Below, in pieces: positions 10,523-50,306 of a stretch of DNA of 64,000 nucleotides (positions are counted from its first letter, which is position 1; each line of letters begins with the position of its first letter). Location of the stretch: positions 1 to 64,000 of the forward strand of contig CAJNYD010000464.1 in the NCBI GenBank assembly GCA_905331295.1, given 5' to 3'. The position numbers and the translations under genes are program-made. Source of the DNA: Rotaria socialis. Lineage: Eukaryota. The notes beneath the pieces were generated by a model. It was not told the origin of the DNA, searched no databases, and worked only from the letters and a program-made list of their open reading frames with translations.

Positions 10523-13500
10523 ATGAACATTGTTTTTTTATAGAATATATTAATTATGAACAATTTATTTATGTTTCGTCTTACTGTATCTTTATAGCAA
10601 AACTTATATAAAACATCGTCGATCTCATTGTCATCATTATCATCAAGAGAGATTTATTCAAGAATGAAACAGCTGATGGATTCAAAAGAATATAAAAAAC
10701 TTTCGATTTTTTCGATCAACAATTTCATTCGTGTACAGATTTTGAAATAAATCTGGCATTAAAAGCATGTATATTAGTTTAAATGAATATCAACGTGGTA
10801 TGAATATTCAAAAAAAAACTTTCTCAAAATTCACTTAGTAATCCTTATATTCAAACAACACTTATTCAACTTTATAGTGAGTCATTTATTTCTTTAACTA
10901 CTCAATTATTATTGGACGTACGATAACAATAAACTATTACTAATGTCATTTTGATTCGCGATTTAGTTAAAATTTTAAAAGATTTTATTAATAATCTATT
11001 TATTAAAACGGTTCTTTCTTTTATGAAACATGTGATTTATAATACTAAGCATTCAGTAAAACTACGAAAAGCTGTTGTGAGAAGAAAACAATCAATTATA
11101 AATTTTTGAGATATTATCATTAAATATAAAAATAAACAATTTTTACTTGCTTGTTTTTCGTAAACTTGGAAATGAAAATGAAAGCATGGAGCTTTTCGAT
11201 AAGATCTATGCTCACCTAATAAGTCTAATAGGCGTTTAAAAAGTAAAAATAATTCACAGTTTATTATTTTTCAATTTTTTTAACACAACACTTATTTTAA
11301 TATGACAAGATAAATAATAAAGCGATTTCTTAAACTGCATAAAAAGAAAAATCTTCTAGAAACGTTTTCATGAGAAAAAACGATGATCTCCTTTTTCTTG
11401 CTTCTTTCAGCATAAAACATCTAAGAAGTTATTAAAATTTGAAAAACCTACATGATACAAATTGGTAAAATTTTGAGTGGAGAGTAAAATCTTACCAGAG
11501 CAACTTTCACGGTTGATTCAACAAAACATACAACATTATTCTGTAATATATTTTAATAATTAGAGATAAATAAAATAACTATTTAATAAAAAACTCATAT
11601 ATCCATTGATTGAAAACCATCTCTGTTTAGAGGAAATTATCCAAGTCTTTAAGATCAAGATTATAAATAATTACGTTATCACGAACGAATAAGTGAAATT
11701 GGCGGAAGAGGCAGAAAGGAAAAACGCTGAAAAGGAAACGTCGAAACTGGGAATTGCAGAAGGTAAAAACGTCGAAGAGGAAAACGTCGAAAGGAAAACG
11801 TCGAATGGAAAAAGTATAATTAATAACAGTGTCGAAGAAAAACTGCCAGAGAAAAAAATTAGAAGAATTTTGAAAAGGAAAACGCAGAATGAAAAAGATG
11901 TCTATAGATAACGAAATTTTTTTCTTTTGATTTGGTAATCAAGGCACAGCAATTATTGAAGGGATTAGCATTGCTACTTGGATCACACAAAAAAAAGAAA
12001 ATAATACTGATAAGCTTAGTTTTCTTTTTTTTATTGTATTTTATCATATAATCGAATAAATTTTTATTTTTCGTTAAAATTATCAAAAAACGCAATTTTC
12101 GACATTTACCTTTCGACGTGTTCCTTTTTCTAATTTTTTCTTTCGACGTTTAGAATTTCTGTATTTTCCCCTTCTATATTTTCCTTTTCGGCATTTTCCT
12201 TTTTTTTCGACGTTTTCCCTTTCTGCCTTTTCCACCAAACCCGAATAAGTCATCTGAAAATAATACTTCGAATAATTCAATATTAGACATTTAAAATTAA
12301 AACTATGTTAATATCTTATTTTATTTTTATTTCTAGTGCGATCTCGTGATGCCAATAATGCTTACTGTTTATTCTCTACAATTACCAATAAATCAAATTA
12401 TATCTATGCAACTATGTTAAAAGGTGATGATTATTAGTTATGCCATTTGACTATTAAACATCACCTTATTTTCAGGTCTTATTTCAAATAATATGCCGAC
12501 TAAAGTGCTCGATTTATTAGATGAAATGAATATTGAACCTAATCAAGCTATTCTCGCTGTTTTATTTAGTGCTTGTTCTCGAGTTGCTAATGATCGAGCA
12601 ATGAAAATTGGAAGAAAACTTCTTGATGAAATGCCTAAGAATTTTGTAAATGGCAATTATATTCAAAATTCAGCAATAAATATATTAATAAGATTTGGTG
12701 ATGTTAGAAGTGCGAGAAATCTTTTTCACATGATCCGAAAAAAGAACATAATTACTTATGGAACTACGATGAATGAATATAATATAAATAGTGAACCATT
12801 GAAAAGTTTAAAACTTTTTGAAGAAATGAAGCGAAATGATATAAATGCCGATGCAATCGTATTAATCATACTGATTGGTGCATGTGCACGACTTGGTATG
12901 CTTTCAAAATGTCAATCAATTGTTGCTCAAATACCTTTGCACTTCTATGAGAATCAACGTATACGCAATTCATTAATTGATATGTGGGTATGTATTGGTT
13001 GTGAAAATTGTCTGAACGAATAATTTTATTCATTCATTTTTTTGTCACAGGGAAAAGCAGATTCAGTTAAGGATGCTCAAAAGATTTTCGAATCGATTGA
13101 TAAACCCGATGTTATTACATATACTGCAATGAGTGAATATTCTTTATCTTTATTTTTTCTATCATCATATTTTTTTACTAATTTCTCTTTGAAGTTAATT
13201 CTTTTGGGCTTAATCGAATGGGCTCAGAAGCTGTGGATTTATATCGAAAGATGCCTAATAATCTACACGATGAAGTTTCAACCATTTGTGTATTAAATAC
13301 ATGTTCTCATTCGGGTCTTCTTAATGAAGCGCATTCTATCTTCAATGAAGTCTCTCATAGAACGGAAAAAAATTATTACTGCAATGGTTTGTATATTTTA
13401 TTGTTTTTGTTAACTATGAACATATTTTTATGATTTAGATTGATTGTTTAAGTCGCCTTTTTTTATTTGATGAAGCACAAAAGCTATTAGAAGATTATGA

Positions 13501-14593
13501 AAAATCCAATCCACCTTATTCAGCTATGTACAGTAAGTGTTGTTTCGATATTAATTTGTTTTTGTTGATTCATTATTTATTTTTGACTCTAGTGGCTATA
13601 TTATCTGGTGCACGTAGTTCTCATAATTATATTTTATCAGAAAAAATATATCTAAGAATGAAATTATTGTTTCCAGATCAAAAAGATGCTCTCACATCTG
13701 GTTCAATTCTTCTTTGTAATATATATTCATAATTAGGTGATCATGAAGAAGCAGAGAATATTCGATTGAATCGAATAAAAGAAGTAGGAAAAAAGTTCAA
13801 GCAGATTTATCGTGGACTGAAGTGAATGGTGAGATAGTGGTAAGAAAATTTTCTAATAAAAATCAAATTTCAAAGAAAAGAATTTGTTCACTTTTTTAGC
13901 AATTCAAAGCTCATGACCGTTCTCATTCTCGATCAAAAGAAATTTATGCTGAAGCTGAACGTATATCATCTGAACTTATTAAACATGGACATAATTATGA
14001 TTCAAGTTGGATTACTCGTCCGTTACATGAAAATGAAAAAATGGAATCTATTTTATGTGCTCATAGTGAACGACTTGCAATTGCCTTTAATTTTATTCAA
14101 GAAACAAAACCATCGTTTATTCAAATTACAAAAAAATCTTCGTGTCTGCGGTGACTGTCGTAAGTTATCAGTTATTTTTCTATGATTCTCAGTAGCTTAT
14201 GTATTTCTTTTTGTGAAACACGATCTGAAAGGAGTGTTGAAGTATATAGAGGAGAAATTTGAACCCACCCCGGGACAGGGAAATTAAGTAATTAGCTAAT
14301 TGATTTCTCTGTCACGGTTTGTGATGGTTTGTGAATTCTCTGCCACAGTCTATGATGGTCTCTACCGACTCCATAGATCAAAATACAGACCGTGGTAGAC
14401 GGGTTCCAGCAAAGGAGTTCCATCTTGTTTCACATTTTAATCCCACAGGGATTGCGCTAACAGCTTTTCTTATTCAGATCAAGCTGCAAAATTAATTGCA
14501 AAAATTCGTCAAGTCAATATTGTTGTTCGTGATGCTAATTGTATCCATCACTTTTCTACTAATAGAACGTGTTCGTGCCAAGATCATTTTTAA
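10523..14593 (+). pseudogene. Multi-exon pentatricopeptide repeat protein with C-terminal DYW-type cytidine deaminase domain; disrupted as assembled; start approximate
   Basis: PPR motifs (VITYTAM, ICVLNTCSHSGLLNEA), LSWTEVNG, FKAHDRSH, HSERLAIAF (14062), KNLRVCGDC|H, VRDANCIHHF, CSCQDHF* (TAA 14591-14593). Frameshifts in A-runs at 13366, 13789 and 14130; TAA at 13730; more lesions in exon 1. Confidence 0.9.
11695..12241. mobile_element. Non-autonomous Mutator-like (MULE) MITE in PPR intron 1
   Basis: Imperfect TIRs (ttggcggaagaggcagaaagg / ttggtggaaaaggcagaaagg) with aacgtcgaa subrepeats. 9-bp direct repeat CGAATAAGT at 11686-11694 and 12242-12250. Empty site near 47750. Confidence 0.85.
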
Positions 14594-15134
14594 TAGATTT
14601 TGTTGTTATATCTTTATATTTACTTTTTTGTATGAAAAAATAAAATAAGATACATGATAATATATCTGTTTTTTACTTCAATCAATCAAAATTATCTTTT
14701 TTCATCAAAAAAATAACATGATACGTATAGTCGACATTGATTTTGTAATTCAACAGAAGTTCGATTTCTACTTTGTCTTAAATTTAATGCTTCATCAAAT
14801 AAATATTCAGTAAGTAGATAGCAACGATGACAATATGCATCGAACCGCGCATTCTACAGTATCCAATGGCAAAGCAACCGTTACTCATTAGACAGATACA
14901 TGGTTTCCTAAAATTATTCTGCAATATCAATACTAACCGTAGTGAATTCGTCGGTTCATTGTCAAAACGCAACCTTTTCCCTCATTCTTTAATTGGATTT
15001 TGAATAAGTATGCTTTATTTTAAAAAGAATTCAATAGGATAAACAAACATTAGAGTGATTCTACATATTCCCTTGTTTCTATCTGCTTGATTTATTAGTT
15101 CAACGGATTTACGCGCTAATTTCCTCAAAGAAGG

Positions 15135-15206
15135 CAACATATTGAAATCAAACTGTGAACATTCACAAATGTGATTTTATCACACAGTCGTCATAAATTC
15201 ATGTTG
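15135..15206 (-). promoter_or_regulatory. Eukaryotic type II SECIS element in the 3' UTR of the deiodinase-like gene
   Basis: Minus strand: CAACAU gaauuu AUGAC GACUGUG ugau AAAA UCAC auuu GUGA auguu CACAGUU UGAU uucaau AUGUUG. It has helix I, the UGA/GA quartet, helix II, an A-run 12 nt after AUGA and an apical mini-helix. Confidence 0.88.
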
Positions 15207-15299
15207 AATTTCATTGTTGAAGGCCGTCGAGTTAATGAATAAGCAGAAACAAGAAAAGGAACGAAGAAAAAGAAGAACACAGGCGATGAATACGAGGAT

Positions 15300-16774
15300 T
15301 TAGGCAATGGGACGATACGATTGATAATAATTGTCAATCCACTGATTGAGTTCATCGATGTGATAGCTAAAAGTATCATTGTCAGGCTCTGCTTTTAAAA
15401 CGAGTATTCCATTGTGAATAATGTAGAAGCGGAATGGCCAGGATCCATATGTCAGATGGAAAGTGTTGTTCATACTATCTACAAGCATGGGCATTTCAAA
15501 TTTGCAATCCTTCTGACATTCACGGGCGTTGACCAGGCGTTGTTCGAGTGTAATTGGTTGGTCTACGCGTGATATTATTTTACCCATAGGCCATTCATCG
15601 TGGGCATGTGCCTCGACAATATAAATCACCAAGAAACACAGACCATTGGGCGCATGCGAGCGAAATAGCGCGCTAGATCAAATGAATAATAAGTATAAGA
15701 TTTAATCGAATCAGCAATATTTACTTAATTCGCTCGGCAGACGCCCGAAATGGAGGTCAGCTAGTTGAGCCAGCCAAAATGACTAATGGCTGACCAGCTG
15801 TGATTTGTGAGAAAAGATTCCTGGACTGACCTTCAGTGGTATACAAATCGACGTCACGCGCACACTGGCCTTGACTGATCAGACCTTGTGTGATCTTGTT
15901 GTGCTTAACTAGAAATAAATCAACGGAGATATTTAATTGTAACATAGAAAAGTTGTAGTATTCAAGATTGAGCCATTGATTTGTACTTGAAAATCTCTAC
16001 TGACTGTGTTAATAGTAAGAATAAAATATAGCTTTTATTTCGAAAACGTTTTTCTGAAAAGCAGATTAACTTCAGAGCAACGAAGCGTCTTTTTATGTTT
16101 CTGTTCCTCTCTTTGACTCACCGTAGTAAGCTGATTTCACGACTGGATCATCTGGAAAACGGTGAAAAGCAGTTCGCAGAGCATTGACATCATGATATCC
16201 AAAATGTTCCACGACATGTTGTTGGATGAGATCGAGCACATGACTTCAATTTCATAGCAAAAGTAAATTTAGAGTACGAGATTATGTGCAGAAGTAGAGC
16301 TAACCTCAACGAAGCTTCATCGTTGTGATAAAAGTCCATTAGTTCTTGAATCGGCTCGGATAGTCGGATGCTTGTTTCATAAGTAATCATTTCGCGTACG
16401 GTCTCGATTGGAGGGAATTCAGTCGATGTTTTGATTTTATCAAAGCCCATACGACCTGATGTTGGAAAAAACATCTTGCATCTGGCTCGGGAAAAGTCCT
16501 GTAAAAAGTGATAGGAGGAGCCATTGTGATTGTCGTTTAACAAATTCGGTGGTGAAAAGGGTGAAAGTTTTACCTTATGTTGTTTATTATTAATTGGCGG
16601 AGCCTTCACTTGGGCTGCAATGGCATCTGCTGTTTGCTGCTCAATGGTGGCTTGTGCTTGACTCGCATCATTTTGTTTGTCTTGGTGTCGAACATTTTTC
16701 GAGCCTTTCAAACGTTGAAAAAAACGCGAAAAAACGTTCTGGTGGCCTTTCGAAGGTGATTGACTGCTAGCCAT
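15300..16774 (-). CDS. DIO: Iodothyronine deiodinase-like selenoprotein, 382 aa with Sec248; exons 16774-16305, 16243-16122, 15908-15725, 15672-15300
   Basis: Three GT-AG introns (61, 213, 52 nt) give a 1149-nt frame with one internal TGA (15759-15757) in PLVILAGSTS-U-PPF. Also IYIVEAHAHDEW and DSMNN..YGSWPFRFYII, matching deiodinase motifs. SECIS lies downstream. Confidence 0.92.
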
Positions 16775-18079
16775 TCACAGAACTTACATTCTTCAATTTG
16801 TGAATTAGACGTAGGCAACGCTAACACACTTTATATAAGAAAACGCAGAGCATTGGAAGCAGGTAAAGTACAAATAAGAAGCGAGCAGAATCATAATGTC
16901 TGATTTCACCATCAAGCAACAATACCCGTCATCCTTGCATTCAATCAAGAAAACATTATAGAAACAGAGCGGTGACTCATTGGCGCATGACTTGGCGTTG
17001 TCTTTTGTACAGTAGACTTCATGATTCTCTTGTTTTGCTCTACGCAACTTTCTACGTTCAGCAAATTTCATGTCACGTATGACTTTTAGTTGGTCATACG
17101 AAATAATTATTACGAGATTGCTGTATGAACCAAGAAAAAGTTTCAAAATAATCATATTCAGTGCACGCTAACCACGCATCTAAATCATCCGTATATGAGC
17201 GACACCACACTTAAATGAAGCAACATCCATATGTGACGTAAGCGAATACTGATCGAAAGTATGTTTTGAGGGTGTGGCTGGATAGGAGTATGTGTTACTA
17301 TCGGCTAGTTCAGTAATGTGACACACTCACACCTACAGTCAATACCTATCGAGAGGCAATTTTGTGCAATGAAGTGATGAGGAGCTATCGATGGAAGAAT
17401 AAACTACACTTTTAAACACGCCAATATTACTTATAGGCTGTATTCACCAAAACATCTTAAGAATATGGAGACTTTTGCCGTAGCTATGTAAAGTATTAAT
17501 AGCTTTATCCCAAGGTTTTTTAAGAAAGGAAGGAAGACGCTCAAATAGTAACGTAAAATCTTCTTGAAGTAGTGTCTTACAAATGTAAGTCCATCTTTCA
17601 ATCTTTCATAGTTAGCTTCAAAACGGTATCCCTGTACTTACATGAAGAATAGTGTTTACAAAGTTTTGATGACATGGTTGTAAATATGGATTAGAGGTAA
17701 AACTGCACACATTGACATTCAGTAATTTGATACTGAAAATATATTAAGGAGACCTAGAGCACATTTTAAATTGTATTCAACATCTATATGTTTAAATACG
17801 TCTCACATACAAACTAGAATCTATTTTCTTCCAAACAAAGAAAAGAACAAGTATGTTTTAAGTGTGTATATCTATTCTCCATTCGCAAATAACCTGTAGG
17901 TACTCACTGTTTTTTCACTCCACACGATAAATAGAGAGTAATTTTTTCGTATATTTTCTATAAAGCAATTATTGCTTATATAAAAGCAGTAGATACCACT
18001 TGAATAAAGGCATAATTGCAATACAATTTTTTCAACTGACACGCATATTCGTATCCTTTCGATAATCGACATCAGAAAA

Positions 18080-18472
18080 ATGCATAACATCAAGACTGTG
18101 ATTTACTTTATGTGCATCTTAACATTTTTAGCTGTGCATTGCAATGCACTAATAGGAAAAAAATCTGGTCAACCTGCCAAGAAAGGTGGCTGTACTCGTC
18201 TTGGTGAAGTTTGTACTACCAGTTCCGATTGTTGTGGTCATGATGATCCTGAGAGTGGCCATTGTGTTGTTTGTTATAGTTTTTGGGCTAGTCTCACTGG
18301 TAGAGGTCATGAAAAGTGTGGTTGTAGTTATGGCTCTGTTACTGTTGATCCGGAAACACATCGTGTCATCAGTAATGTTTGCAATGGTCCCGATCGATCT
18401 AGTAATAGTGTTTGTCGTACACGTGTTGCTCCTCCTGGTGATCGTTATTATCTTGGCAACAAGATCTTTTGA
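18080..18472 (+). CDS. Secreted cysteine-rich protein with knottin-like C-x6-C-x5-CC motif
   Basis: Intact 130-aa ORF with signal peptide and CTRLGEVCTTSSDCC; 10 Cys in the predicted mature part; AATAAA near 18607. Confidence 0.8.
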   Translation: MHNIKTVIYFMCILTFLAVHCNALIGKKSGQPAKKGGCTRLGEVCTTSSDCCGHDDPESGHCVVCYSFWASLTGRGHEKCGCSYGSVTVDPETHRVISNVCNGPDRSSNSVCRTRVAPPGDRYYLGNKIF

Positions 18473-23517: not shown

Positions 23518-24313
23518 ATGCCGTCACGTAATTTAATTTTCTTCTTTCAAAAATAATTTTCTATCATTTAAACTTTGTTTTATAGGTATTCATATATCTA
23601 TGAGCCAGTTTCTATGGTTTGCCTATATAGTGCCATGTTTTGCTCTATTTTCTTGTGTTAGTTTATCATTAATGAAAGATTTTGAAAAATCAACACGCAC
23701 ACATTGTAATGTTACTAATTTTCTTCCATCAATATCAGCATCAATCAGTGAATATGAACCACAACGTTTTATATGGCGTTTATGTTTTGCTTTGGATAGT
23801 ATTCCTCGTTATATTATTGCTTATTTACAATTAAATCATTTACTTAATCGTCATCATATTGAATATCCTGAACATTTTGCATTAGTACAAATAGCAAGTA
23901 GTACTTTTCATTTTCTTGAATTAACATTTCTCCTGTTATTGACATATGTATCATCGAGGGAAATCAAATGGATACACGAATACTCCTTTATTAGTTTTAT
24001 GATATGTTCATTGGCACATATGCTATTGACTGTATCAACCGATTATTTGTGGCCAAGAATAATGCATATTCCTTTAAATGAACAAGAAAAATCGGTACGC
24101 TCGAAAAGATTAACATGGTTTACGTTGAATATCGTTTCAATTTCGATTTCATTTTATTTTTATTATCGACATGTGACATTTTGTGAGCCATATATCTATT
24201 CCATGTTTTGTCTTTTTGAATATATTATCGTAATAACCAACATTGCCTATCATTCAGTAATTATGAATGAATGGGATCGACAAGGAGTGCAAATACAATT
24301 TCTTATTAAATAA
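23518..24313 (+). CDS. PGAP2: Post-GPI attachment to proteins factor 2 (Frag1/DRAM/Sfk1 family)
   Basis: THCNVTNFLPSISASI..PQRFIWR, YYRH..CEPYIYSMFCLFEY and NIAYH motifs. Probable first coding exon 23518-23527 with a 58-nt intron, in frame with the 23600 ORF. Confidence 0.85.
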
Positions 24314-29259: not shown

Positions 29260-32200
29260 TCAAGCTAGCTTTGAATTAACTTCAGCAATCATGCGCCGAA
29301 CTTGAGCAATATTAGCTTCATGTAGTGGTTGATTGTTAAGCAGAATACTCAAACTATTATCCAAGTAAGTTGGGCACTGAGAGAACTTGCCCTGTTTCAT
29401 GAGAAGATCACTGATTAACATAGATGTATAAGCGATCTGCGGGTGATTCGATGGAAATGAACTTGTTTGAATCAATAAGCACTTTTCATGACTCGATAAA
29501 GCCTCATCATACTGCTGCTGCTTAACTTGTATATTTCCGATCGATCGGTAAGTAGAAGCAAGATCAATATGTTCAGGTGATAATGTAATTAACTGAAGAT
29601 TTAAATATTCGTTGTAAGCTATCAAAGCTTCTTGGTATCGACCCAATAAACGGTAAATGATGCCCGATTTCTTTACAGCATGCATAGTCATTGGATGAGT
29701 TCGTGGTGCACATTCCAGTTGGAGATCCAAAACGAGCTGGTAATTCACAAGTGCTTCGGATAAATGTTCGTTCGTAAAGTGAATGTCACCAATACGAACA
29801 TAAATATCAGCAAGAGAACTGTTCCGATATTTGATCGAGTCTTGATCTGTCTTCAAATTCGTTGAAGAAAAGGATTGAAATAAAATCTTCAAAGCCGATT
29901 CATAGTTATCCAGTGCTTCGGTCAGTTTCTGTTGTTTCTGGAGAATTGTACCAATCATTGTGTGCGTATCAACAAGATCACAATGATAAGATGGAAGCGA
30001 AATAGTTTGAATAGACAAGCATGCTTTCAAGCTTGATAAAGCATTGTCAAACTGCTCTAAGAGCATATAGTTGATACCCAAGTACCAGTAGTCTTTGGCA
30101 ACCTCAGGATCCGTTGGTGATGAGCATTTGAGTCGAATATCTAAAGCACGTTTGAAATTGTAGAGTGCGTCGGCATGCTTATTCTGACCGCTGAGAGAAG
30201 AACCAATTGTTCTATACGTAAAGATAAGGTCGGGATGGTCTGAATGCAATGAACTCGCTTGAAACTCTAAAAATTGTCGCCAGTTTGTCAATGGATCCTG
30301 ATGCTGGCGTTTGCTTAAAAAATGCCCTTGTACCATTGATCGACTTAACGCTTCTATTTCCAACATTGGCATTGCCGAATGCTCAATCTCGAAGCTTGCT
30401 TTGAATGCAAATACTGCTCTTTCGTAGTTATTCAACTCGGCGTAAACCATTCCTATACGTTTCCAAAGTACTGCTATGGATGGATCCGTTGGTGGCTTAA
30501 CTTGGAGTCGGAAATCCATAGCGAGCTTATAGTTTTCAAGTGCATCAGAAAACTTGTGCAGTTTGCACAAGACTGTACCAATAAACTGGTAACAGTTAGC
30601 ACATTGTAGCTGATCGATAGGGCGGCAGTTCTCCATAATCCTAAGAGATTCTCGGAAGTTTGACAAAGCTTTCAAGTTTTCTTCCTTCTGCTCGTAGAGG
30701 TCACCAATTAAAAAGTAACCACGGGCAATCTGAGCCAACGGAACCGGCCACACTGTCGAGCCCATCTCTAGACATTTACCGAATTCATTTGATGCTTTTT
30801 CAGCATCCCCCAGTCGACAATACAGAAATCCCATGCGTATCCGAGTTTGTGCTATCTTGGAATATGTTGATGGTAAAGATTCAAGTTGAATTTGTAAAGC
30901 ATTTTCGAAATGTATAAGTGCATCTGGAAACCTTTTCAACAACTCCAAAGTCTCGCCAACATCGTCGTAAGCGCGAACCAGGTCAGATACACAATCAGGG
31001 TGGTACGTTTTTGTAATATGTAACGATTTTTGAAAACTGGACAAAGCATAATCGTACTTCTTCAGTTCTAAGTAGTTTTGTCCAATGCGGGAATGGGTGC
31101 GTGCGATGTTAATATGCTCCGGTTCCAAATAAGTCCTTTGAATTTCTAGGCGCTTTTCAAAGTTGAATAAAGCTTCTTCATGCTGTACGCAGTCTTGATA
31201 ATGCCAAGCTTGTTGTAGATATATATTGGCGATACTCTTTGATCGACTTGTGTTGAAGATATTGTAATCCTCCCTTGATATACTTATTGGCATGTCCCTG
31301 CATCTCTCCCACACAGCGAATGCCGCATCAAACTTGTTCTGAGCTACATAGACCCGGGCGATTCTATCCAATACCTTCGCCATTAATGGAAGTGTCTCAT
31401 GAATATTTTGTATTAGACTTTCGTAGGCTTTGTTATAGAACTCCATAGCTTCCGCTAGTTCTTCTCTTTGACGATAACATTCTGCTTTGATCATATAAAC
31501 ACCACATATTTCATGTGGAGCAATATTTTCTCCTTGTACTGTTTCGATATATTCATTGATGCTGGATAACGCCTCGTCTATCTTATTTTGCCCATAATAT
31601 GCAACACTTATTGTCAGCAATGAAATCGGATCGTTTACTCCGTTGGATTGTGCTTGTGTGAAAAGCGTCTGACAGAATTCATTTTTCGATACAAAGTTCA
31701 CGTCATTGTCTTCTGTACAGTTGACGAATCGATTCATTACTTCAGTCGCTCTCCTGTGGGTGTGCCCCAGTGGCAGCGAACGCTCTTGGACTTTGACAAT
31801 TTCTTTTACTATAGCAGATTCTTGACACTGTTGACCCTTGAGGTTCTTCAATACAAAAATTTGTTGGAGACATGTGGCAAGATATGGATGCGTCGCTGGT
31901 AGGCTATGTTGGAGAAGTTCATATGCTGTGGTCGAGTATGACAGGGCATCGGAGTAACGTCCTTGTTTATAACGAAACCTGCCAATAGTCATGTAAGCTA
32001 GACCGAGCGATTCTTGCTGAGATTTTGAAGTTTGATATGTTTTGTTAGCAACCGCTGCTTCAATATTTTCTATGGCAAGATCCCATTGGCCCTGCATGCA
32101 GTAGAGCAGAAATTTGCGCTGAAGATCTATTTTGCTGCCTCTTGAAATATGGCACCGTTCATCTGGAAAATTGAATAGCGATTGTAATTCACGCATTGCG

Positions 32201-33540
32201 TCTTCTTTCTTTCCTAGGTTTAAAGCAAACTCTGCCAACATTATGGATACAAGTGGTTTCAAATCTTGAGTGATTGTTTGAAGCGCTAGCTTGCCGATCT
32301 CCTTCGCCTCTACGTATTTACCCTCAAAATACATAAGCTCAATAAACGATAATACGTTTGGAGAGCCCATATTTAACCGTATGTGATGAGTGAGTCGTGT
32401 TAGTTCTGGGTCGTTATCGTGCGTTAATAGCAATTTGATGAGCGAAATATTACGGTCATCGGGTGGTTCAATCGATTGGATACGAAAAACGCTGCCCATC
32501 GTGAAGAGGAACTCCTCTTCGTCTTTGAACAGACTCCAATCGCGTATGTCGATATAATGAGCGACAGTGGGTATCGATGGGCCAGCTTCGATTTCAAAGA
32601 GCACTGAAGTCGTATGAGGAGGCTTACTCGAAGTTTCACTATATATCAAGGCAACGCAATAATTTTTTGTAGTGGAAAGAAAAGAATTGAATGACAGGAG
32701 GCCGCCAGCTTTTTTCTTCATTTCATCAAAAGTAGCTGTTGGTATGCTCATACCTCGATAGACCTTCAAGATCGACGATTCTTCAGAGTTCACATGGCAA
32801 TTAACAATTTGTTGATGAAGATCTTTGATGAACACACGCATTGAGTACAAAAAGATTACATCGTGTTCACGTAATGCTTGATTCAAATCTCTGTAGAGAA
32901 ACCAATCTTTCGTATACCATTGAATAGGTTTCATTTGATCATAGCGGCATTCAAATTCGCAAATTTTTTCAATATCCTTCGGATGTTGATAGTGACTGCG
33001 AAGAAAGTCGATCATCTGAATCCGGTCACAGTCTGAATAGTCCATCTCTGTTAAAATGTATTTGAGCAATTGGCCGTACATGAACATCACTTCCTGTTCG
33101 TTTTTTGAATCTACATCTGTTAGTGAAGCAGAGAAGCTGCTCACAAAATTGAATTGTTTACTATCATCTTGTGTGTACGACTCTAGTATCGGGCATATCG
33201 ATGTGATACTATTAATAACACCTTTAACTTTGTTGCGTTCCTTTATCCAAGACAAATTCGTTGATCGATTCAAAGAAAGTACATAAATCTCTTTGAGTTG
33301 CTTGACCTCATGAAGTACTGAAACAATATTTTCACCATCCAATTCATTAACAATTAACAGAATTTGATGGTCTTCAGTATCCGTCACATAATCGACGCAT
33401 TCGTCTAGGTCATCGAATATTTCAACAAACTTCACTATTCGCTCAAGTTCCGTTTTCGCTTTGTTTATATTATCGCTTCGTGCAAGATCAGTTCCATCGA
33501 GCAAGACGGCAACACATATTTCTGACTCAAACGATAACAT
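29260..33540 (-). CDS. Mono-ADP-ribosyltransferase domain plus long TPR array, 1426 aa, single coding exon
   Basis: WYT..FLYRDLNQALR, VYRG, FLSTT and EEEFLF (R-S-E type ART), followed by many ~42-aa TPR units (HPDL/HINIA..Y..IG). Confidence 0.9.
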   Translation of the reverse strand: MLSFESEICVAVLLDGTDLARSDNINKAKTELERIVKFVEIFDDLDECVDYVTDTEDHQILLIVNELDGENIVSVLHEVKQLKEIYVLSLNRSTNLSWIKERNKVKGVINSITSICPILESYTQDDSKQFNFVSSFSASLTDVDSKNEQEVMFMYGQLLKYILTEMDYSDCDRIQMIDFLRSHYQHPKDIEKICEFECRYDQMKPIQWYTKDWFLYRDLNQALREHDVIFLYSMRVFIKDLHQQIVNCHVNSEESSILKVYRGMSIPTATFDEMKKKAGGLLSFNSFLSTTKNYCVALIYSETSSKPPHTTSVLFEIEAGPSIPTVAHYIDIRDWSLFKDEEEFLFTMGSVFRIQSIEPPDDRNISLIKLLLTHDNDPELTRLTHHIRLNMGSPNVLSFIELMYFEGKYVEAKEIGKLALQTITQDLKPLVSIMLAEFALNLGKKEDAMRELQSLFNFPDERCHISRGSKIDLQRKFLLYCMQGQWDLAIENIEAAVANKTYQTSKSQQESLGLAYMTIGRFRYKQGRYSDALSYSTTAYELLQHSLPATHPYLATCLQQIFVLKNLKGQQCQESAIVKEIVKVQERSLPLGHTHRRATEVMNRFVNCTEDNDVNFVSKNEFCQTLFTQAQSNGVNDPISLLTISVAYYGQNKIDEALSSINEYIETVQGENIAPHEICGVYMIKAECYRQREELAEAMEFYNKAYESLIQNIHETLPLMAKVLDRIARVYVAQNKFDAAFAVWERCRDMPISISREDYNIFNTSRSKSIANIYLQQAWHYQDCVQHEEALFNFEKRLEIQRTYLEPEHINIARTHSRIGQNYLELKKYDYALSSFQKSLHITKTYHPDCVSDLVRAYDDVGETLELLKRFPDALIHFENALQIQLESLPSTYSKIAQTRIRMGFLYCRLGDAEKASNEFGKCLEMGSTVWPVPLAQIARGYFLIGDLYEQKEENLKALSNFRESLRIMENCRPIDQLQCANCYQFIGTVLCKLHKFSDALENYKLAMDFRLQVKPPTDPSIAVLWKRIGMVYAELNNYERAVFAFKASFEIEHSAMPMLEIEALSRSMVQGHFLSKRQHQDPLTNWRQFLEFQASSLHSDHPDLIFTYRTIGSSLSGQNKHADALYNFKRALDIRLKCSSPTDPEVAKDYWYLGINYMLLEQFDNALSSLKACLSIQTISLPSYHCDLVDTHTMIGTILQKQQKLTEALDNYESALKILFQSFSSTNLKTDQDSIKYRNSSLADIYVRIGDIHFTNEHLSEALVNYQLVLDLQLECAPRTHPMTMHAVKKSGIIYRLLGRYQEALIAYNEYLNLQLITLSPEHIDLASTYRSIGNIQVKQQQYDEALSSHEKCLLIQTSSFPSNHPQIAYTSMLISDLLMKQGKFSQCPTYLDNSLSILLNNQPLHEANIAQVRRMIAEVNSKLA

Positions 33541-35787
33541 CTTGTAGTCGAATATTGCTCATGCAGCCCACTATACATAATAATTCTTATTATATTGAGC
33601 TTTTTATGATTACAACATTTTGATAAGATCTCAAAATGGATAGATATGTCGAAATTAGTGACGATTTCAGGATTTTGGGACATCTTGTATCTCAGCTTCT
33701 GAGCACGAACCCTGGATGAATCTGATACACAGTGGCGTTAGACCTCAATGATGAGTTCTTATGGAAAACATTTTGTGATCGGAACATGTGAAAAGTAATA
33801 ATTTGATTTCCTCCGCCAATTCTACAATTGGTTTGTTTTTATTAGTATTTCTTTTTTTTAATGATCTGATCCTAATCTAGATAGAATTTCATCCATAAAC
33901 ATTCATTTCTTCTGAACAGATGTAAACTTGTAAATGATAATTAAAATCTCTCGATGAAATTCGATGTTGATTACGATTAAATTATTAAGAAAAGAATACT
34001 TATAAGAGTTCATTATTGTTCATAAATGTTATCTAGGTCACATGCGCTGAAGTCGAAGTACAGTATACCCGAAATTCGTGGATCCATCACTGGTCGAGAT
34101 TTAAGCTGCAGACTACACGACTCTCACGGAACTCAGGGAAGGGACGAGTATTGGTGTGTGAAATCCGTCGTCCATGTCTCTCACATCCAGTTAGATAGGT
34201 GTCTAAAAACACATTCAAATTACCTTGAAACGATTTTTGCTTTGTTGATTGAATAATATTTCTCGCAAAAAAAGCAACTCAATTTATTCATCAAAGCATA
34301 GAGTGAAATGTTGTGCAAAAATAAATCGTTCTCTCTACTATTGTGAGAGAAGTTAAAGTGGGAAGATCCACTCTACATATGCGTAAATAGTTCTCTACTT
34401 GAACGTAAACGAATTTAAACAGTTCTATTAACTAATGGAATTCTTTATATCGATTTCTTTTCCTAGAATGCATACGAAATGATTCACTCTGAATCAGAGT
34501 TCGGAGGTACGCATTTGCACTTGTACTGCTCGTATTTTTTTTGAGTAAAAGTAAAATACGTTTACTTGCTGTACTTGTACTTGTCCTAGCTCTGGTCTGA
34601 ACAAATCGACTCTTTTAATATTCTATATAGAAATGGGTGACAGTAGATTCTTCTTCGGTTAATAAGTACAATTAAGAAATGTTGACATTAAAATCTAATA
34701 TTGAATCACTCGAACTAATTTTCTCAAAGTTCTAAAAGATAATGTTTTTCTCATCGTTTCTTCATTAATAATTCATTGTTGACAATATTTACAAATAAAA
34801 TATTTATACACAGAAGCAAAGAGAGCAATTATGTTTTTTCAACTGAGAGAAAAATCCTTGCTTTTTAGCTCGTCCAATATGATCTAGAATAAACAATTCA
34901 TTTTTTTATTATTATTTTCCTCTCATCTAGATATCTTCAATAATCTACTTAATTGATATTCAACAATCGACAATGGAAGAAAAGCTCCCAGCACAATTGT
35001 TGCCACATTAAAATGTGAAATATGGTTAAATTGTTTTTCTGGAACTTATCTGTCACGGTCTGCAAGGAAAGAAGATTCGAATTTCTACCCTATCACTGTA
35101 AACAAGAAAATCGAATTTGATTTTTTCCTCGTCATGAAGCATTTATACTTGATGGTGGAAATAAAATCCAATACAATATAAGCAAATAAAAAAATAAAAT
35201 AAAATACCATATGAAAAAATAAAATAACAAGCATTGCGGACTAAAACAAAATAAAAAATCAAACAAAAAAAGATGACAGAATAGAAGCTAAAATAAAATA
35301 AAAACTAAAGTAGAGCAATAATTAACAAAAAATAAGAACTAAAAAAAAGAGAACTTTAAAGGAAATAAAAAATAAATAAAATGAAAAAAAAGATTTAACA
35401 ACTCCTAATAGCGAGTTGAAGAAAATAATGATTGTTTAACATTATACCTACTGACTTATATACTAGACAGGGCAAGGACTAGGTGACGGTCTTTGTTTCG
35501 ATAATCTTGGAAGAAATAGAATCAATTTTTTCGTTTTTAAAAATTCTCAATCGATATTCTATAAAATCAGAACTGATTTTCAAATGGTCTGAAATCTATT
35601 GTGGATTTTCCACTTTATAGAAAAATGATACCTTTTGAAATTCCAATTGAATTTCTATAAATGGGAAAATCAAGTATTTTCAATTTGTTCAAAATTCAAC
35701 GAATAAATCATCAAGCTTTAAAAATGCTTCACCTTATTTGAGATCGATTTTCGAATTTATAGAATTTGAAAAAAATTACAATGTATA

Positions 35788-37243: not shown

Positions 37244-39090
37244 TCATGTCTCATTTATTTCCAACTTGATACTTCTGGTTTTATAAAATACGAATGTTGT
37301 GTCTATCGTTAATATCACTATAGCTGTAACCAGATAGTAGGCCATCAGTCTCCCGGTTAAAATCTTCCAGCCGAGAGACTGCTCGGCAAATGCAGCTGCA
37401 AAGAATGATATCGTTATACTAAGCATTGTAATCGCTTCGTATATTGAATGTACTTTTGGTTTTTCTTCCGGTTTGTGAGATTTCATTAGCAATGCTGATG
37501 AGGCTACGTACCCAAAGTTCCATCCAATACCAACAAAAATCAAACCTACATTGAAAGAACTAATTGCCATATTACGTTGAAGTAATAGTGCTCCTATCAA
37601 TTGAGTAACAAGACCAGCAACCATAAGTAGTCGACTACCACACCAGTTACATAGAGTTCCAGAAAAAAACGATGGAACAAACATGCCTAATAGATGGCAT
37701 TCGATAGCTGTTATTACTTGACGAAAACTGTAACCAAAACCAGTCATCGCTAAAGGTGTAGCCGACATTTGAACAGACATTGATGACCATGATACGAAGC
37801 CAATAAAAATGGCAACAAGAAATGTTCGTTGACCAGCTATTACGAATATTGAACGGCCGTCTAGACCAGAGTTACTGTTTCTTGTCGTTGATGATGAACT
37901 CGGTATAAGTGCAGCATATTTTGTGCTCATGTCGGGAAACTGGATTATTGTCATAAGGAATAGAAGCAGCAGGAATTCGCCTAATGTTGCTATATAAGCC
38001 CCGCAGTATGGTTTTGACAACATGTTTACTGTATGTGTAGCAATTTCTGGCCTAGAGTAAAACCAAATTAGTATAGATAGAAATGCTTCTGACGATATCT
38101 ATCTGCTTCTATCAGTGCGACTACCGTTCATGGCGAAATAACACGAGTAAGATCTCAACATATTTATCACTGCAACTGAAGTACTTCTGATAGTGCACTT
38201 CAGTCGCTATATGCTTAATGACGATCGTTGGTAGTCTTATGTGCTTTTCAATGTGCTATTTATTCATTGTCAAAACTGCTGTGAGTCATGGTGGAACTAT
38301 CAAAAGAGCTTGCGAGAGGTAAGTTCCGTTTTAAGTAATGTCGGAGGTGAGAGTTTTCTCAACTTAAAATATATGAAGAATTTTAGTAGACATTCAATGA
38401 TCTATCTAATCAGAAATATTCAGTTATTTTGTGGTCTTTCCTAAAAATGAATAGATTTTTGCTCTGTTCGATGTACATATTTTGACAAACAAATAATTAT
38501 GGTAAGCATGAGCCTACCCGAGTATTGTAGAGAAACAACCGCCAGCTATGACCATTGCTATGGCTTTTGGAGCAAATTCTTGCGTCGAAAACTGCAATGC
38601 TACCAGACGATAGTACAATGTGCACGGCAATTGTCCACCTAAAAATCCAGAACTCACGATTAACAACCAATAGAGCTTATACCATGCTGCTACAATGCTT
38701 AGTCCAGCTCCGATGGAGCCCATAAGAGCACCAAAATAAAATGGTCGTCGGTATCCAAACCGAGCTATTGCACGGGGCAAAAATATAGATGAAACGGTAC
38801 CAATTAAAAGCATTACGCCGATAGGTATCGTCGCCAGATTTGAATCGGTAAAACTTTTAGCCGCCACTGTTGTCGTGCTTACTTGAATATAATTTATGGC
38901 TTGACCGAGACTCCATGAACATGACAATAGAAATACATTCCATAACATTTTCCGGAACAACGGATCAGTCCATCGAGCGTGAAGACCATTTAGCGACCAA
39001 AACGATGGTAATTGAACATCAGTTGGATTCTGTTGTTGTTGTTCAATATGAACTGATTCATCATGTCGTGGAATGCCAATTTTTGCGAGA
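37244..39090 (-). CDS. Bacterial-type MFS transporter (RfnT-like); exons ~39090-38518 and 38051-37244; start unresolved
   Basis: A 466-nt intron joins AIAMVIAGGCFSTILG to PEIA. HLLGMFVPSFFSG and GIGWNFGYVASS motifs; about 12 hydrophobic segments. Confidence 0.8.
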
Positions 39091-40825
39091 GCTGAATCAA
39101 AAGGACGTATTATTCAGATTATTCGAATAGCACAAAGAACAAAACTCTGATCATTTATTCAGAAATTTTAATAATAATCTTGATTATTCTTATCTATAGA
39201 ATCTGCATATTTTATTTTATACTCAATTTAGTATGTGATATTGTATTCTGTATTTTTCATTTACTGTTCGTTCGATTTCTAACGATGAAAATAAATCTTT
39301 GAAAACATGAATTTCTTACCTTAATAAACATTTTCTGATTAAAACTGTGAAATTTTTCATAATTGTTAACTAGTTTTTCAATTGCTGTTTAGAAACGCTG
39401 TTACTCTGCCATTTTAAGGATCATTGGCGACTTTTCATGTAATTTTTTATATTCAACGCCGCTCTACACCGAACATCCACATAAAAACAATCAAAAATCC
39501 GATATATCTGAACGAATAACAACGGTAAACATGCAAGATGCAGAGTGGGATGCTCACATTTGATATTTGTAAAAATGTTCTTCCTTTTAATATGACATTC
39601 CATATTTCAACGGTTGTATCCTCAAGTTAAGTCTCTGATATTGAAATATATAAAATGGTCAAGCTATAGTCCTTATTTCCATACTACTGAAACAGTATGA
39701 ATATGAAATTTTATCAACAAAATGAAGTTTAAAAGAATTCAAACATTACAATGTGAACTATATTAACATAGAATATATTCAAATGGACAAATGAGGTGCT
39801 TTGTTGGTTTGACATTTTGAATATCGGATTCTCGCCGTCACTCCACTCTCGTGGTTGAATGGATTATGTGAATTAGATACAGTTTTTAATGTAAGACAAG
39901 CTACATATGTAAAAACAATTTGAAACTCAATATTGATACTAAGCGAAAGTAGTCCATACGATGATTGAATTGTAAAATTTTAAGAAAATTACAATGACTC
40001 GTACATGTTTCCAGCTACCTAAAATTAAAGTGCCCGAACAGCTCGTAAAGCTCTTTAGGGAGATAAGAAACAATGGGTTCTTTTCTGGAGAAGTTTGCTA
40101 CATAATCCTATCATGAAGATTTTTAAGAAATCTGCGTTGGTTCTGACTATTTTTTCTATCGTTCATTCAACTTCTGAAACTTAACTATTTAAATCATGAA
40201 CAGCAGCACTGGATTCAACCACTCGTTGTCTTGTCGTATTAGTGTCTTTCAAACCTTCTATTTCACCACGTTTTAATGTTACTGCGTCTTGAGAGCGTAC
40301 ATTGTCACTGATGGATGCCATGATTGGTACTTCGTTCTGTGTATCACTGTACAATGTCGTAGGATGACATGATTCAATATTGATTACTATGGTGTTTTCA
40401 GAATTGCTACATTTATCTGCGACATCGGATTCGACGACTTGGTTCGTAGATATGTTCATCTAGAAATGAGATAGGAATGTGTTCATCGTCTTTTTTTCTA
40501 TTTTCTATCGCATGTACAAAAGAATTACCTCGTCTGCAGCAAAATGATTTCAGTTTCACATAAAGAAATGTGCTTAATAACGATGATAAAATGTTTGTTG
40601 TTGATTCTTGGATGCAGTACAACAATGAAGAATCATTTCGACCTCTTATCTCTTCTGTGTTTGCCTTGTATTCTAATGGTATACGTAAAATGATACTTTA
40701 TAAACATAAAAAAAACGCTGTGGTATCAGAAGACAACAAGATTAGAGTAGATTTAGTATCCTTACCTTTCGGTGTGGGGTGAGGATCAAATAAATGTGGA
40801 AACTTCGGATTTCATCCGAAAGTTA

Positions 40826-48233: not shown

Positions 48234-50306
48234 CTATTGTGGTCTCGACTTATTTAGCGATGCATGTCCATATTTTTCAAGCCATTTAAGTTCTTCTCGA
48301 ACTTTGATCTTTCCATGCCATGGATTGATAGTCAGGTCGTGTCCTTCGTTTGGAAAAAGTAATAATTTCACAGGAACACCAAGATAATGTAACCCGCGTT
48401 CTAACGTTACACTTTCAGACGGAGGAACACGTAGATCATTTGCACCACTAACTATATGTGTTGGCGTTTGGACGTAACCTAATTTAAACATAATCGATTC
48501 TTCATAATAGGTTTCCGGTATTTCCCACGGATATCCACCAATATAAGATGCAATATACAACGGCGTATCCATCGTACCCCATAAAGAAACATGCTCAACT
48601 GGTCCAGCACCGGATACAGCAGCATTAAACCGCGTTGTTTGGGTAATCAACCAGTTTGTTAAAAATCCACCATAACTAAAACCGCCAACAGTAAGTCTAT
48701 TTGGATCAGCGATGCCATCGGCAATTAAAGTATCAACGCCAGCAAGAATATCTCGTCCTGGTCGAGATAAAGGATGACCAATAAGTTCACTTAAAAATGC
48801 ATCGCCATATCCCGCCGAACCTCGATAATTAGGTTCCAAAACTAGCCAACCTTCAGTAGCTGCTAATGGAGCCCACGAATACCAATCTCCGATTAACATA
48901 TTGAGACTTGTAGCTGATGGACCTCCATGAATAAGTACAAATAATGGCAAATTTTTACATTCAAACTTTCCCGGTGGATAATGTAGAATTCCTTCGATTG
49001 TACGATCATCTTCACTATTAATCCATCGATATACTTTTGCTCGAGGTAGATTTCGTTCACGAAGAAGTTGATTTTCACAAGTAACAGCTTTCGCGACATA
49101 TAATTGATTGATATTTTCAACAAAATAAACCTCTAATGCGCTTTCAAATGATGAATGAGCAAATGCAATCGACAGTGAATGTGGTGATGTGGCCGAGGAA
49201 ATCAATTGATATGTTCCTTCCCATCCGTGCTGTAACATTACAAACTTTGATGATGACTGCTGTACATATATTTGAACATTGACTCCTAATTGTCCAAGTA
49301 TATAAACACCACCCTGTGGTCGAATTGTATAGCCTATAATATTTCCATTGAAGCCTTTTCCCCAATGTTCAGTCACTCCAGTTGTTAAATCGACCGAGCC
49401 TAATGCATTTTGTGTATCATTATATTTTCCACCAGTCGGTCCCATGGAACCTATTACAAAGAATAGATGTTTACCGTCGGGTGATAATTGCAGATTTTGT
49501 TCCATCATTTTGTTATCTGTTAATCTAGATAGTAAAGATACATTTCTGAGATCAAGTGCGTATATTTCGAAATCATGTGAATTTTCGACAAGCGTTGATA
49601 CGGATGTAAAGACAAGTTTATTTTCCGCTGGAACCAATAAGAGTTCACCAACTAGAAAATCGATATTGGTAATAGTCGTAATTTTCACAGATATTTTATG
49701 ATTTTTATTTTTAATATCAATACGATGGAGAGTAGTACTATCTGTCGGTTTTCGTTGTCGATATTGAACAACATCCTTCCATTCGTTTTGATTCGTCTTG
49801 TTGTCTTCTTGAGATGATGCTATTGAAATGAAATAAAGTGAATTATCATCATTGCCCCATACGATTGCCAGTGGGTTGTGGTTTCCGACTTCGATCAATA
49901 ACGTTTCTTCGGAAATAATATTATATAAATGAATATATTTTTCATTTTTCACCGGTCGAGAACGTTCGTTAATGTTGATTGGGTCTGTTTGTGAGCTTTC
50001 ATCGATTAAGTAATAAATCCAAGCACCACTCGGTGACCATTTTGGTTTGACATTGGGATAGAGTTGGTTAGTAATCAATTTTTTTTGTGTAGTTTCAGTT
50101 CGATAAAGCCACAATGCATCTTCATATCGATTCGATTCCCAAGCAGGACGCAAACTGTGAACTAATAAATAACCAGCATCAGGTGAAAGACTCAATGATT
50201 TATATTGGGTTGAATTAAGAAAATCATCAATTGTTAACTTTGGAAGTGTTTCTGTTGAAAAGCAATGGAAATATGCTACGACGAGCACTAATAAGTAACA
50301 CTTCAT
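48234..50306 (-). CDS. Secreted S9 family peptidase (dipeptidyl aminopeptidase / acylaminoacyl-peptidase type), 690 aa, intronless
   Basis: Signal peptide, SPD/WSP propeller repeats, IHGGP, PNYRGSAGYG, GFSYGG (Ser), DLRV (Asp), EGHD (His). Confidence 0.93.
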   Translation of the reverse strand: MKCYLLVLVVAYFHCFSTETLPKLTIDDFLNSTQYKSLSLSPDAGYLLVHSLRPAWESNRYEDALWLYRTETTQKKLITNQLYPNVKPKWSPSGAWIYYLIDESSQTDPININERSRPVKNEKYIHLYNIISEETLLIEVGNHNPLAIVWGNDDNSLYFISIASSQEDNKTNQNEWKDVVQYRQRKPTDSTTLHRIDIKNKNHKISVKITTITNIDFLVGELLLVPAENKLVFTSVSTLVENSHDFEIYALDLRNVSLLSRLTDNKMMEQNLQLSPDGKHLFFVIGSMGPTGGKYNDTQNALGSVDLTTGVTEHWGKGFNGNIIGYTIRPQGGVYILGQLGVNVQIYVQQSSSKFVMLQHGWEGTYQLISSATSPHSLSIAFAHSSFESALEVYFVENINQLYVAKAVTCENQLLRERNLPRAKVYRWINSEDDRTIEGILHYPPGKFECKNLPLFVLIHGGPSATSLNMLIGDWYSWAPLAATEGWLVLEPNYRGSAGYGDAFLSELIGHPLSRPGRDILAGVDTLIADGIADPNRLTVGGFSYGGFLTNWLITQTTRFNAAVSGAGPVEHVSLWGTMDTPLYIASYIGGYPWEIPETYYEESIMFKLGYVQTPTHIVSGANDLRVPPSESVTLERGLHYLGVPVKLLLFPNEGHDLTINPWHGKIKVREELKWLEKYGHASLNKSRPQ

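What the first reader, a model, noticed from the sequence alone, without database searches (positions are those of the whole stretch)
15135..16774. Hidden selenoprotein: deiodinase-like gene with in-frame UGA, SECIS and an unusual N-terminal domain
Seen in sequence: three separate ORFs splice into one 382-aa frame whose only internal stop is TGA in GSTS-U-PPF, and a type II SECIS lies about 95-165 nt past the stop. Established: iodothyronine deiodinases carry Sec in GS(C/A)TUP(P/S)F followed by YIxEAH..W. Unusual: STSU replaces SCTU, there is no N-terminal TM anchor, and about 200 aa of basic/helical sequence (PPIETVREMITYETSIRLSEPIQELMD...) precede the thioredoxin fold. Inference: a soluble Sec-dependent dehalogenase-like enzyme in an animal with no thyroid, likely split by standard annotation and possibly of non-metazoan origin.
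Basis: partly seen in the sequence, partly recalled or inferred. Interest (0 to 1): 0.88.

Follow-up and report, generated by a model that had tools for sequence, protein, structure and literature searches.

The report
Rotifer deiodinase-like selenoprotein with C10-like domain
A bdelloid rotifer gene keeps an in-frame UGA codon and a conserved RNA hairpin behind it, so it very likely makes a soluble selenium enzyme related to thyroid-hormone deiodinases; its extra domain likely resembles the human Temtamy-syndrome protein C12orf57, and the gene probably came from a microbial eukaryote.

Summary
The gene (minus strand, Rotaria-type bdelloid rotifer) has five exons, not four: RNA contigs remove a 75-nt in-frame intron, giving 357 aa with UGA at codon 223. 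UGA is kept in 23 of 23 related loci that span the site. The form-2 SECIS covaries, and a model built without the window finds it alone in 64 kb. Public gene models skip the UGA or stop at it. The catalytic domain folds like Dio2/Dio3 but lacks the membrane anchor, His219, the thyronine clamp (Arg275, Glu259) and both resolving cysteines, so it is not a thyroid-hormone deiodinase. The N-terminal five-helix domain is shared with amoebae, a cercozoan, a heterolobosean, early-branching fungi and giant viruses, and was absent from 79 bacterial loci. Some relatives match Pfam Protein C10 (C12orf57); the rotifer proteins themselves do not, so that link is transitive. Bdelloids were the only named animals found. 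They form one expanded clade apart from opisthokont sequences, which fits an old gene transfer. Deiodinase-like selenoproteins are a known kind, and this scan noted such genes before in a marine protist and in giant viruses. New here: the C10 link and the bdelloid family.

The parts
16574..16774 (-). Exon 1 (coding part), aa 1-67: variable basic tail
   Evidence: ATG at 16774; same start as public model P0001; contigs cover upstream to 16901
16499..16573 (-).
   Evidence: skipped in contigs of X2 and X4; GT..AG; also spliced in model P0045
16305..16498 (-). Exon 2, aa 68-132: MFFPTSGR motif (16474-16442) and first helices of the C10-like domain
16122..16243 (-). Exon 3, aa 132-173: rest of the five-helix domain
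   Evidence: joints of 61 and 213 nt; model with five helices
15725..15908 (-). Exon 4, aa 173-234: start of the thioredoxin/peroxiredoxin fold and the active-site loop AGSTS-U-PPF
   Evidence: Pfam T4_deiodinase E 0.0024 for this exon alone
15757..15759 (-). In-frame TGA, inferred selenocysteine 223
   Evidence: TGA in 23 of 23 metagenome loci that span the site, 5 of 5 viral loci; Cys at this place in Rhizophagus relatives
15300..15672 (-). Exon 5, aa 234-357 and TAA: IYIVEAH..D.W motif and rest of the deiodinase domain
   Evidence: Pfam PF00837 E 3.2e-14, 53.3 bits over cut-off 27
15138..15203 (-). Form-2 SECIS: AUGA at 15194, UGA on the 3' side, AAA bulge, apical mini-stem
15108..15225 (-). 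Predicted lower stem extension of the SECIS and a conserved GCGCG motif (15116-15112)
   Evidence: consensus fold of 10 chosen UTRs; GCGC 78-86 nt behind AUGA in 10 of 15 UTRs, 0.027 expected

Best explanation
This spliced rotifer gene very likely reads its UGA as selenocysteine and makes a soluble deiodinase-like enzyme whose active site is predicted to strip a halogen from, or otherwise reduce, a small substrate that is not thyroid hormone, with a likely C10-type helical domain in place of the membrane anchor. Shown: gene structure, conserved UGA, covarying SECIS, no hydrophobic anchor, residue pattern, family range. Predicted: fold. Inferred: Sec insertion (0.96); the selenolate in S220-T-S-U223, helped by Y251, E254 and H256 (Dio3 Ser167, Sec170, Tyr197, Glu200, His202), attacks the substrate and is re-reduced by outside thiols because no resolving cysteine is kept; halogen-removal chemistry rather than plain peroxide or disulfide reduction (about 0.5); the helical domain is a remote Protein C10 homologue acting as a binding module (homology 0.7); one transfer from a microbial eukaryote into the bdelloid ancestor, then intron gain and duplication (0.65).
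For: UGA kept and spliced in; six intron-free loci read through it in one frame. 26 of 59 hits for the N-terminal half end exactly before this codon, two read it as Trp. SECIS. AlphaFold model of a close relative (L001, aa from the motif on): pLDDT 94.9; best matches Dio2 9h48 E 1.3e-13 and Dio3 4tr3 E 2.7e-13, Dio3 4tr4 Z 23.9, rmsd 4.6, 179 aligned, next Z 15.0. Residue map to Dio3, roles from PMC12025243 and PMC11592359. Highest 19-residue hydropathy in the first 200 aa is 0.43. Pfam P_C10 in 8 of 61 aligned relatives, best E 1.8e-7, 31.6 bits over cut-off 27, profile 9-89 of 103; five helices in the model, as described for a predicted C12orf57 model (PMC13478489). Origin: only bdelloids among named animals; bdelloids one clade 100/99, opisthokont rows in another starred clade 96/92; forced unions rejected, p-AU 0.0019 and 0.040.
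Against: No activity, no selenium and no Sec machinery (tRNA-Sec, SBP2, eEFSec) was shown; no genome is held. His219, the entry of the proposed proton relay, is Pro here and in 27 of 63 stored family proteins that fit the pattern (redundant set), which weakens deiodinase-type chemistry. No rotifer protein scanned matched P_C10; only 1 relative passed the cut-off, and the good hits fall in one amoeba-like subclade, with weak ones in other clades (E 0.033, 0.065). Helical domains match by chance easily. The tree rests on 146 columns of the N-terminal half, has no root and no supported named sister for bdelloids; the groups were tested after a first tree was seen; hidden paralogy and losses could give the same picture. 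Most relatives are unnamed, so other animals may hide among them, and no animal deiodinase was in the tree.
Confidence: 0.55

Rival explanations
1. Same selenoprotein, but it works as a one-selenocysteine peroxiredoxin or thiol oxidoreductase (peroxide, sulfenic acid or disulfide reduction), part of the bdelloid antioxidant set, and has no link to halogens.
For: After Dio2/Dio3 the closest folds are TlpA/ResA-type oxidoreductases and peroxiredoxins; AhpC-TSA and Redoxin match several members; His219, Arg275, Glu259 and Asp211 are not kept; the W-P turn is that of ordinary thioredoxin folds (established knowledge); Cys forms persist in Rhizophagus.
Against: The deiodinase-specific insertion and the Y-x-x-E-A-H network are kept in all members, and the fold match to Dio3 stands well above peroxiredoxins (Z 23.9 against 15.0). 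No peroxiredoxin P-x-x-x-T-x-x-C motif and no CxxC partner are seen in the sequence.
Confidence: 0.3
2. It acts on proteins: the C10-like domain binds a partner and the Sec site reduces a modified residue, such as a halogenated tyrosine or an oxidised cysteine, in a ubiquitin-linked quality-control setting.
For: Relatives carry ubiquitin, F-box, ZZ, C1 or FYVE domains in front; in 12 stored proteins the M-x-x-x-T-S-G-R motif follows a ubiquitin RGG end directly; the residues that grip the free amino acid of thyronine are absent; C12orf57 is reported to bind CAMK4 (PMC11838199) and predicted to bind ANKRD50 (PMC13478489).
Against: The rotifer proteins have no such fusion; the RGG cases are mostly one Rhizophagus cluster; no partner or substrate was tested.
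Confidence: 0.12
3. The gene is an old eukaryotic paralogue inherited vertically and lost, or merely not found, in other animals.
For: The family occurs in fungi and in a transcriptome labelled Colp12, which I recall as the holozoan Syssomonas; the word-based searches are insensitive and UGA-split genes are poorly annotated; introns 3 and 4 are shared across the genomic bdelloid loci; the bdelloid sister group is unresolved.
Against: No named animal outside Bdelloidea among 8, 59 and 120 listed hits; unions with Colp12 or with opisthokont rows are rejected; bdelloids are known for foreign genes (established knowledge).
Confidence: 0.3
4. The UGA is a real stop (truncated 222-aa protein or a pseudogene).
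For: Many database models end there; the hairpin is below the Rfam cut-off; two degenerate Rotaria magnacalcarata models with a deletion and C-S-P-F show that broken copies exist.
Against: The frame continues for 134 conserved residues holding the rest of the catalytic domain; only TGA, never TAA or TAG, stands at the site in 23 of 23 loci; the SECIS covaries.
Confidence: 0.03

Closest known systems
Vertebrate iodothyronine deiodinases Dio1-3 (Pfam PF00837; PDB 4TR3/4TR4, 9H48)
   Same: Fold, S-x-x-U-P-P-F loop, Tyr197/Glu200/His202/Trp207/Arg260 equivalents, UGA plus 3' SECIS.
   Different: No membrane anchor; five-helix domain instead; His219 is Pro, Arg275 is Pro, Glu259 is Phe, Asp211 is Lys, Cys168 is Thr, Cys239 is Met; Phe258 is Pro as in Dio1.
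Deiodinase-like (DI-like) selenoproteins of Dictyostelium (PMC2375036), Gonapodya and other protists (bioRxiv 10.1101/314781) and invertebrate DI clusters (PMC3473315)
   Same: Sec-containing deiodinase homologues in organisms without a thyroid, function unknown; a Gonapodya protein belongs to the same family as this gene (P0132).
   Different: The passages I read describe no N-terminal helical domain, no C10 link and no rotifer member. Whether the Dictyostelium, Trichoplax, Lottia or Capitella proteins carry the domain was not tested.
Bacterial deiodinase-like selenoproteins (Acidobacteriota, Planctomycetota, Actinomycetota loci)
   Same: G-S-x-T-U-P-P-F with TGA in 72 of 79 loci by my pattern.
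   Different: 0 of 79 carry the helical domain within 1.2 kb flanks, against 5 of 5 giant-virus loci.
Protein C10 / C12orf57 / GRCC10 (Pfam PF14974)
   Same: About 80 residues of the profile match the helical domain of relatives; five helices predicted in both.
   Different: C10 is a free-standing 126-aa protein said to lack homology to other vertebrate proteins (PMC11838199); here it would be a domain fused to a selenoenzyme, and the rotifer copy is too far to match directly.

Membership tests
Eukaryotic selenoprotein | In-frame UGA kept in spliced RNA and in homologues, Cys in some | tested here: met
Eukaryotic selenoprotein | SECIS in the 3' UTR | tested here: met
   covariation and leave-out model; alone below the Rfam cut-off
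Eukaryotic selenoprotein | Host has tRNA-Sec, SBP2, eEFSec; selenium in the protein | not testable with these tools
   no genome held; no tRNA in the window
Deiodinase-like superfamily (PF00837) | Pfam score over cut-off and Dio-type thioredoxin fold | tested here: met
   53.3 bits for exon 5; 82.1 bits for the L001 relative
Deiodinase-like superfamily (PF00837) | S-x-x-U-P-P-F and Y-x-x-E-A-H..D.W motifs | tested here: met
Vertebrate-type iodothyronine deiodinase | N-terminal membrane anchor | tested here: not met
   hydropathy maximum 0.43 in the first 200 aa
Vertebrate-type iodothyronine deiodinase | Complete proton relay including His219 | tested here: not met
   Pro273 aligns with His219; Ser, Tyr, Glu kept, Thr169 is Ser
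Vertebrate-type iodothyronine deiodinase | Thyronine clamp His202, Arg275, Glu259 | tested here: not met
   His kept; Arg275 aligns with Pro, Glu259 with Phe; Dio1 also lacks Arg275
Vertebrate-type iodothyronine deiodinase | Resolving cysteine(s) Cys168 and/or Cys239 | tested here: not met
   Thr221 and Met294; Dio2 lacks only the first
Vertebrate-type iodothyronine deiodinase | Deiodination of T4/T3 | not testable with these tools
   needs an assay
Protein C10 domain (PF14974) | Pfam match over cut-off | tested here: inconclusive
   one relative over cut-off, 8 of 61 at E<=0.01, no rotifer member
Protein C10 domain (PF14974) | Five-helix bundle of about 90 residues | tested here: inconclusive
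   five helices in my model and in a published prediction; no structure of C10 was available to superpose
Horizontally acquired bdelloid gene | Nested with support in a non-metazoan clade, absent from other animals | tested here: inconclusive
   apart from opisthokont rows, but no supported named sister and no other animal genome searched

The most novel reading that the evidence does not exclude
An undescribed eukaryote-and-giant-virus class of soluble selenoenzymes joins a C12orf57/C10 module to a deiodinase fold and repairs or edits halogenated or oxidised residues on proteins; bdelloid rotifers took a whole Sec gene, SECIS included, from a protist, plugged it into animal recoding and expanded it. 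This would give the orphan Temtamy-syndrome protein its first enzyme-linked relatives.
Probability: 0.15. Interest if true: 0.85.

Novelty: new variant of a known kind. Interest (0 to 1): 0.56.

Why it matters
It corrects a whole gene family that the public bdelloid models seen here break at the catalytic codon. It gives a soluble deiodinase homologue, easier to express than the membrane enzymes, for asking what deiodinase folds did before thyroid hormone. It is a candidate case of a foreign selenoprotein gene working with animal recoding machinery. The likely C10 homology offers a handle on a human disease protein described as having no homologues.

Tried and rejected
No host genome is held, so Sec machinery and copy number were not checked. 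No RNA holder is on record; runs are guessed RNA. A single-protein scan of viral contigs found nothing; the alignment did. The helical domain alone gave no clear solved fold: Foldseek no E<=0.001, best VIA Z 5.8, rmsd 4.0, 76 aligned; no PDB sequence match to it; no usable named Atlas hit. These blanks do not show a new fold. A loose SECIS pattern gave 13 hits in the window, so pattern matching alone is no evidence. The two Cys-bearing R. magnacalcarata models were not counted as functional Cys homologues because they carry a deletion and an altered motif. P0123 was a spurious repeat hit. Two regex hits (P0078, P0079) end in an unrelated GS motif and were dropped from 28 to give 26. P0297 was dropped from the first tree as too short, which is the quick tree because the careful search did not finish. 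The rotifer SECIS model found nothing in the five viral loci; a loose pattern found hairpins in 4 of 5. Whether the protein forms dimers is untested. Paper searches for rotifer or bdelloid with selenoprotein, deiodinase, SECIS or selenocysteine, giant virus with deiodinase and C12orf57 with deiodinase listed no paper on this family; the library lacks most subscription papers. Supplements of PMC10809525 and PMC12220480 held no deiodinase row, but the latter was cut at 7,614 rows and one file was too large, so foreign-gene calls for these genes may be in parts I could not see.

Full report
Gene and organism. The window is AT-rich eukaryotic DNA with short introns. Exon 5 is 99% identical to a Rotaria socialis model, and all 8 hits of that search are bdelloid rotifers. 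Contigs from four public runs show joints at all predicted introns and at one more, 16573-16499. The supported protein has five exons and 357 aa, with the TGA at codon 223, 32 nt before the last junction. The contigs are from close relatives, and the runs are only guessed to be RNA, but they lack the introns.

The UGA. In the second laying no other letter is listed at the codon, while the two bases beside it vary; four rows were not shown. Of 29 metagenome loci, 23 span the site and all 23 have TGA followed by PPF; four of them are near copies. Six are intron-free and read in one frame through it. Five of five giant-virus loci also have TGA. Rhizophagus relatives have Cys there. Public models fail at this codon: none of the 8 full-length hits holds the motif, and 26 of 59 hits for the N-terminal half end exactly before it.

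The SECIS. Alone it is weak (Rfam 20.6 bits, cut-off 35; folding z about -1.1 to -1.6). Across 15 UTRs the AUGA, the AA bulge and the 3' GA are invariant. 92% of cells pair, 8 of 14 pairs change on both sides, and 0 of 500 shuffles or any slid register comes near; the shuffle ignores relatedness. A model built without the window and without its closest relative finds only this place in 64 kb (57 bits, next 17.6). The apical mini-stem makes it form 2. Sec insertion itself, and the host's Sec machinery, were not shown.

The catalytic domain. An AlphaFold model of the close relative L001 has pLDDT 94.9 and matches Dio2 and Dio3 best. By the alignment to Dio3, Ser167, Sec170, Tyr197, Glu200, His202, Trp207 and Arg260 are kept. 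Thr169 is Ser. His219 is Pro, Asp211 Lys, Glu259 Phe, Arg275 Pro, Cys168 Thr and Cys239 Met in the window's protein. The roles of these residues come from passages of PMC12025243 and from passages and one section part of PMC11592359. There is no hydrophobic anchor. So the protein works like a deiodinase core but is not a member of Dio1-3. The STSU motif is ordinary variation in an S-x-x-U frame.

The N-terminal part. Residues 1-75 vary. A motif MFFPTSGR follows; it is ordered in the full model (pLDDT 87-93) and not in the domain alone (under 50), so it likely packs on the catalytic domain. One short paralogue group lacks it. Then come five helices. This domain is present in Endostelium, Euglypha, Willaertia, Gonapodya, Hyaloraphidium and Rhizophagus proteins, in Atlas clusters of giant viruses and ciliates and in 5 of 5 viral loci, but in 0 of 79 bacterial deiodinase-like loci. 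Pfam Protein C10 matches it in 8 of 61 aligned relatives over most of the profile, one above cut-off, with further hits in the same subclade and weak ones in two others; no rotifer member matched. A paper passage describes predicted C12orf57 as a five-helix bundle (PMC13478489), and another says it lacks homology to known vertebrate proteins and binds CAMK4 (PMC11838199). I put the homology at 0.7. Relatives often carry ubiquitin, F-box or zinc-finger domains in front, and in 12 stored proteins the motif follows a ubiquitin RGG end.

Origin. Rotaria, Adineta and Didymodactylos carry several paralogues; Adineta vaga has at least four models. They form one clade in a 79-row quick tree and a 34-row careful tree (100/99). 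Fungal rows and Colp12 (recalled as a holozoan) sit in another starred clade with viruses, and forcing them together with bdelloids is rejected (p 0.0019 and 0.040). No other named animal appeared. Against this: 146 columns, no root, no supported named sister, many unnamed rows, no animal deiodinase in the tree, and possible paralogy. Introns 3 and 4 are shared across the genomic bdelloid loci, so the gene is long settled. Transfer from a microbial eukaryote: 0.65.

Mechanism. Most likely the selenolate attacks a halogenated or otherwise electrophilic small molecule, with the kept Ser-Tyr-Glu-His network, and outside thiols restore it. A one-Sec peroxidase or thiol reductase is the main rival. 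Action on protein-bound residues through the C10-like domain is the bold reading. None was tested.

Novelty. Deiodinase-like selenoproteins without a thyroid are known from Dictyostelium (passages of PMC2375036), invertebrates (passages and section 10 of PMC3473315) and Gonapodya (passages of bioRxiv 10.1101/314781). Earlier notes of this scan describe such genes in giant viruses and a soluble one with an unplaced N-terminal domain in a marine protist. My paper searches listed nothing on a rotifer family or a C10 link. Verdict: real, a new variant of a known kind, interest 0.56.

Noticed in passing
window 15116-15112 (-) and 10 of 15 homologous 3' UTRs: A GCGC(G) motif stands 78-86 nt behind the SECIS AUGA in very AT-rich UTRs (0.027 expected per such stretch), just past a predicted lower stem extension; the five UTRs without it are of the S-x-T-U paralogue group. 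Function unexplained.
   Followed up: partly
window 16789-16784 (-): An ATG followed at once by TAA lies 15 nt upstream of the start codon, inside the covered 5' region: a minimal upstream frame.
   Followed up: no
proteins P0118, P0131, P0153, P0171, P0203 and relatives: Cys-form family members in Rhizophagus and unnamed sources are fused behind one or several ubiquitin-like domains, with the M-x-x-x-T-S-G-R motif directly after the RGG end, as if released by a deubiquitinase.
   Followed up: partly
L030-L034: Giant-virus contigs carry the same two-domain gene with TGA at the active site, four with a SECIS-like hairpin by a loose pattern; L030 appears to have a zinc-finger region in front.
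   Followed up: partly
window about 12451-14290 (+): A PPR gene with a DYW deaminase domain lies tail to tail with the gene; such plant-type editing factors in bdelloids are known to me from recall only.
   Followed up: no
window 18008-18472 (+): Small cysteine-rich frame with a hydrophobic start, knottin-like; only a weak Pfam hint (E 0.31).
   Followed up: no
window 29260-33558 (-), 48234-50315 (-), 56341-58233 (+), 23537-24313 (+), 37244-39113 (-): Long TPR frame (1432 aa), S9 peptidase, ADP-ribosyltransferase with NHL repeats, Frag1/DRAM and MFS transporter frames.
   Followed up: no
proteins P0066, P0080: Degenerate Rotaria magnacalcarata copies with Cys in place of Sec, C-S-P-F and an internal deletion.
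   Followed up: no
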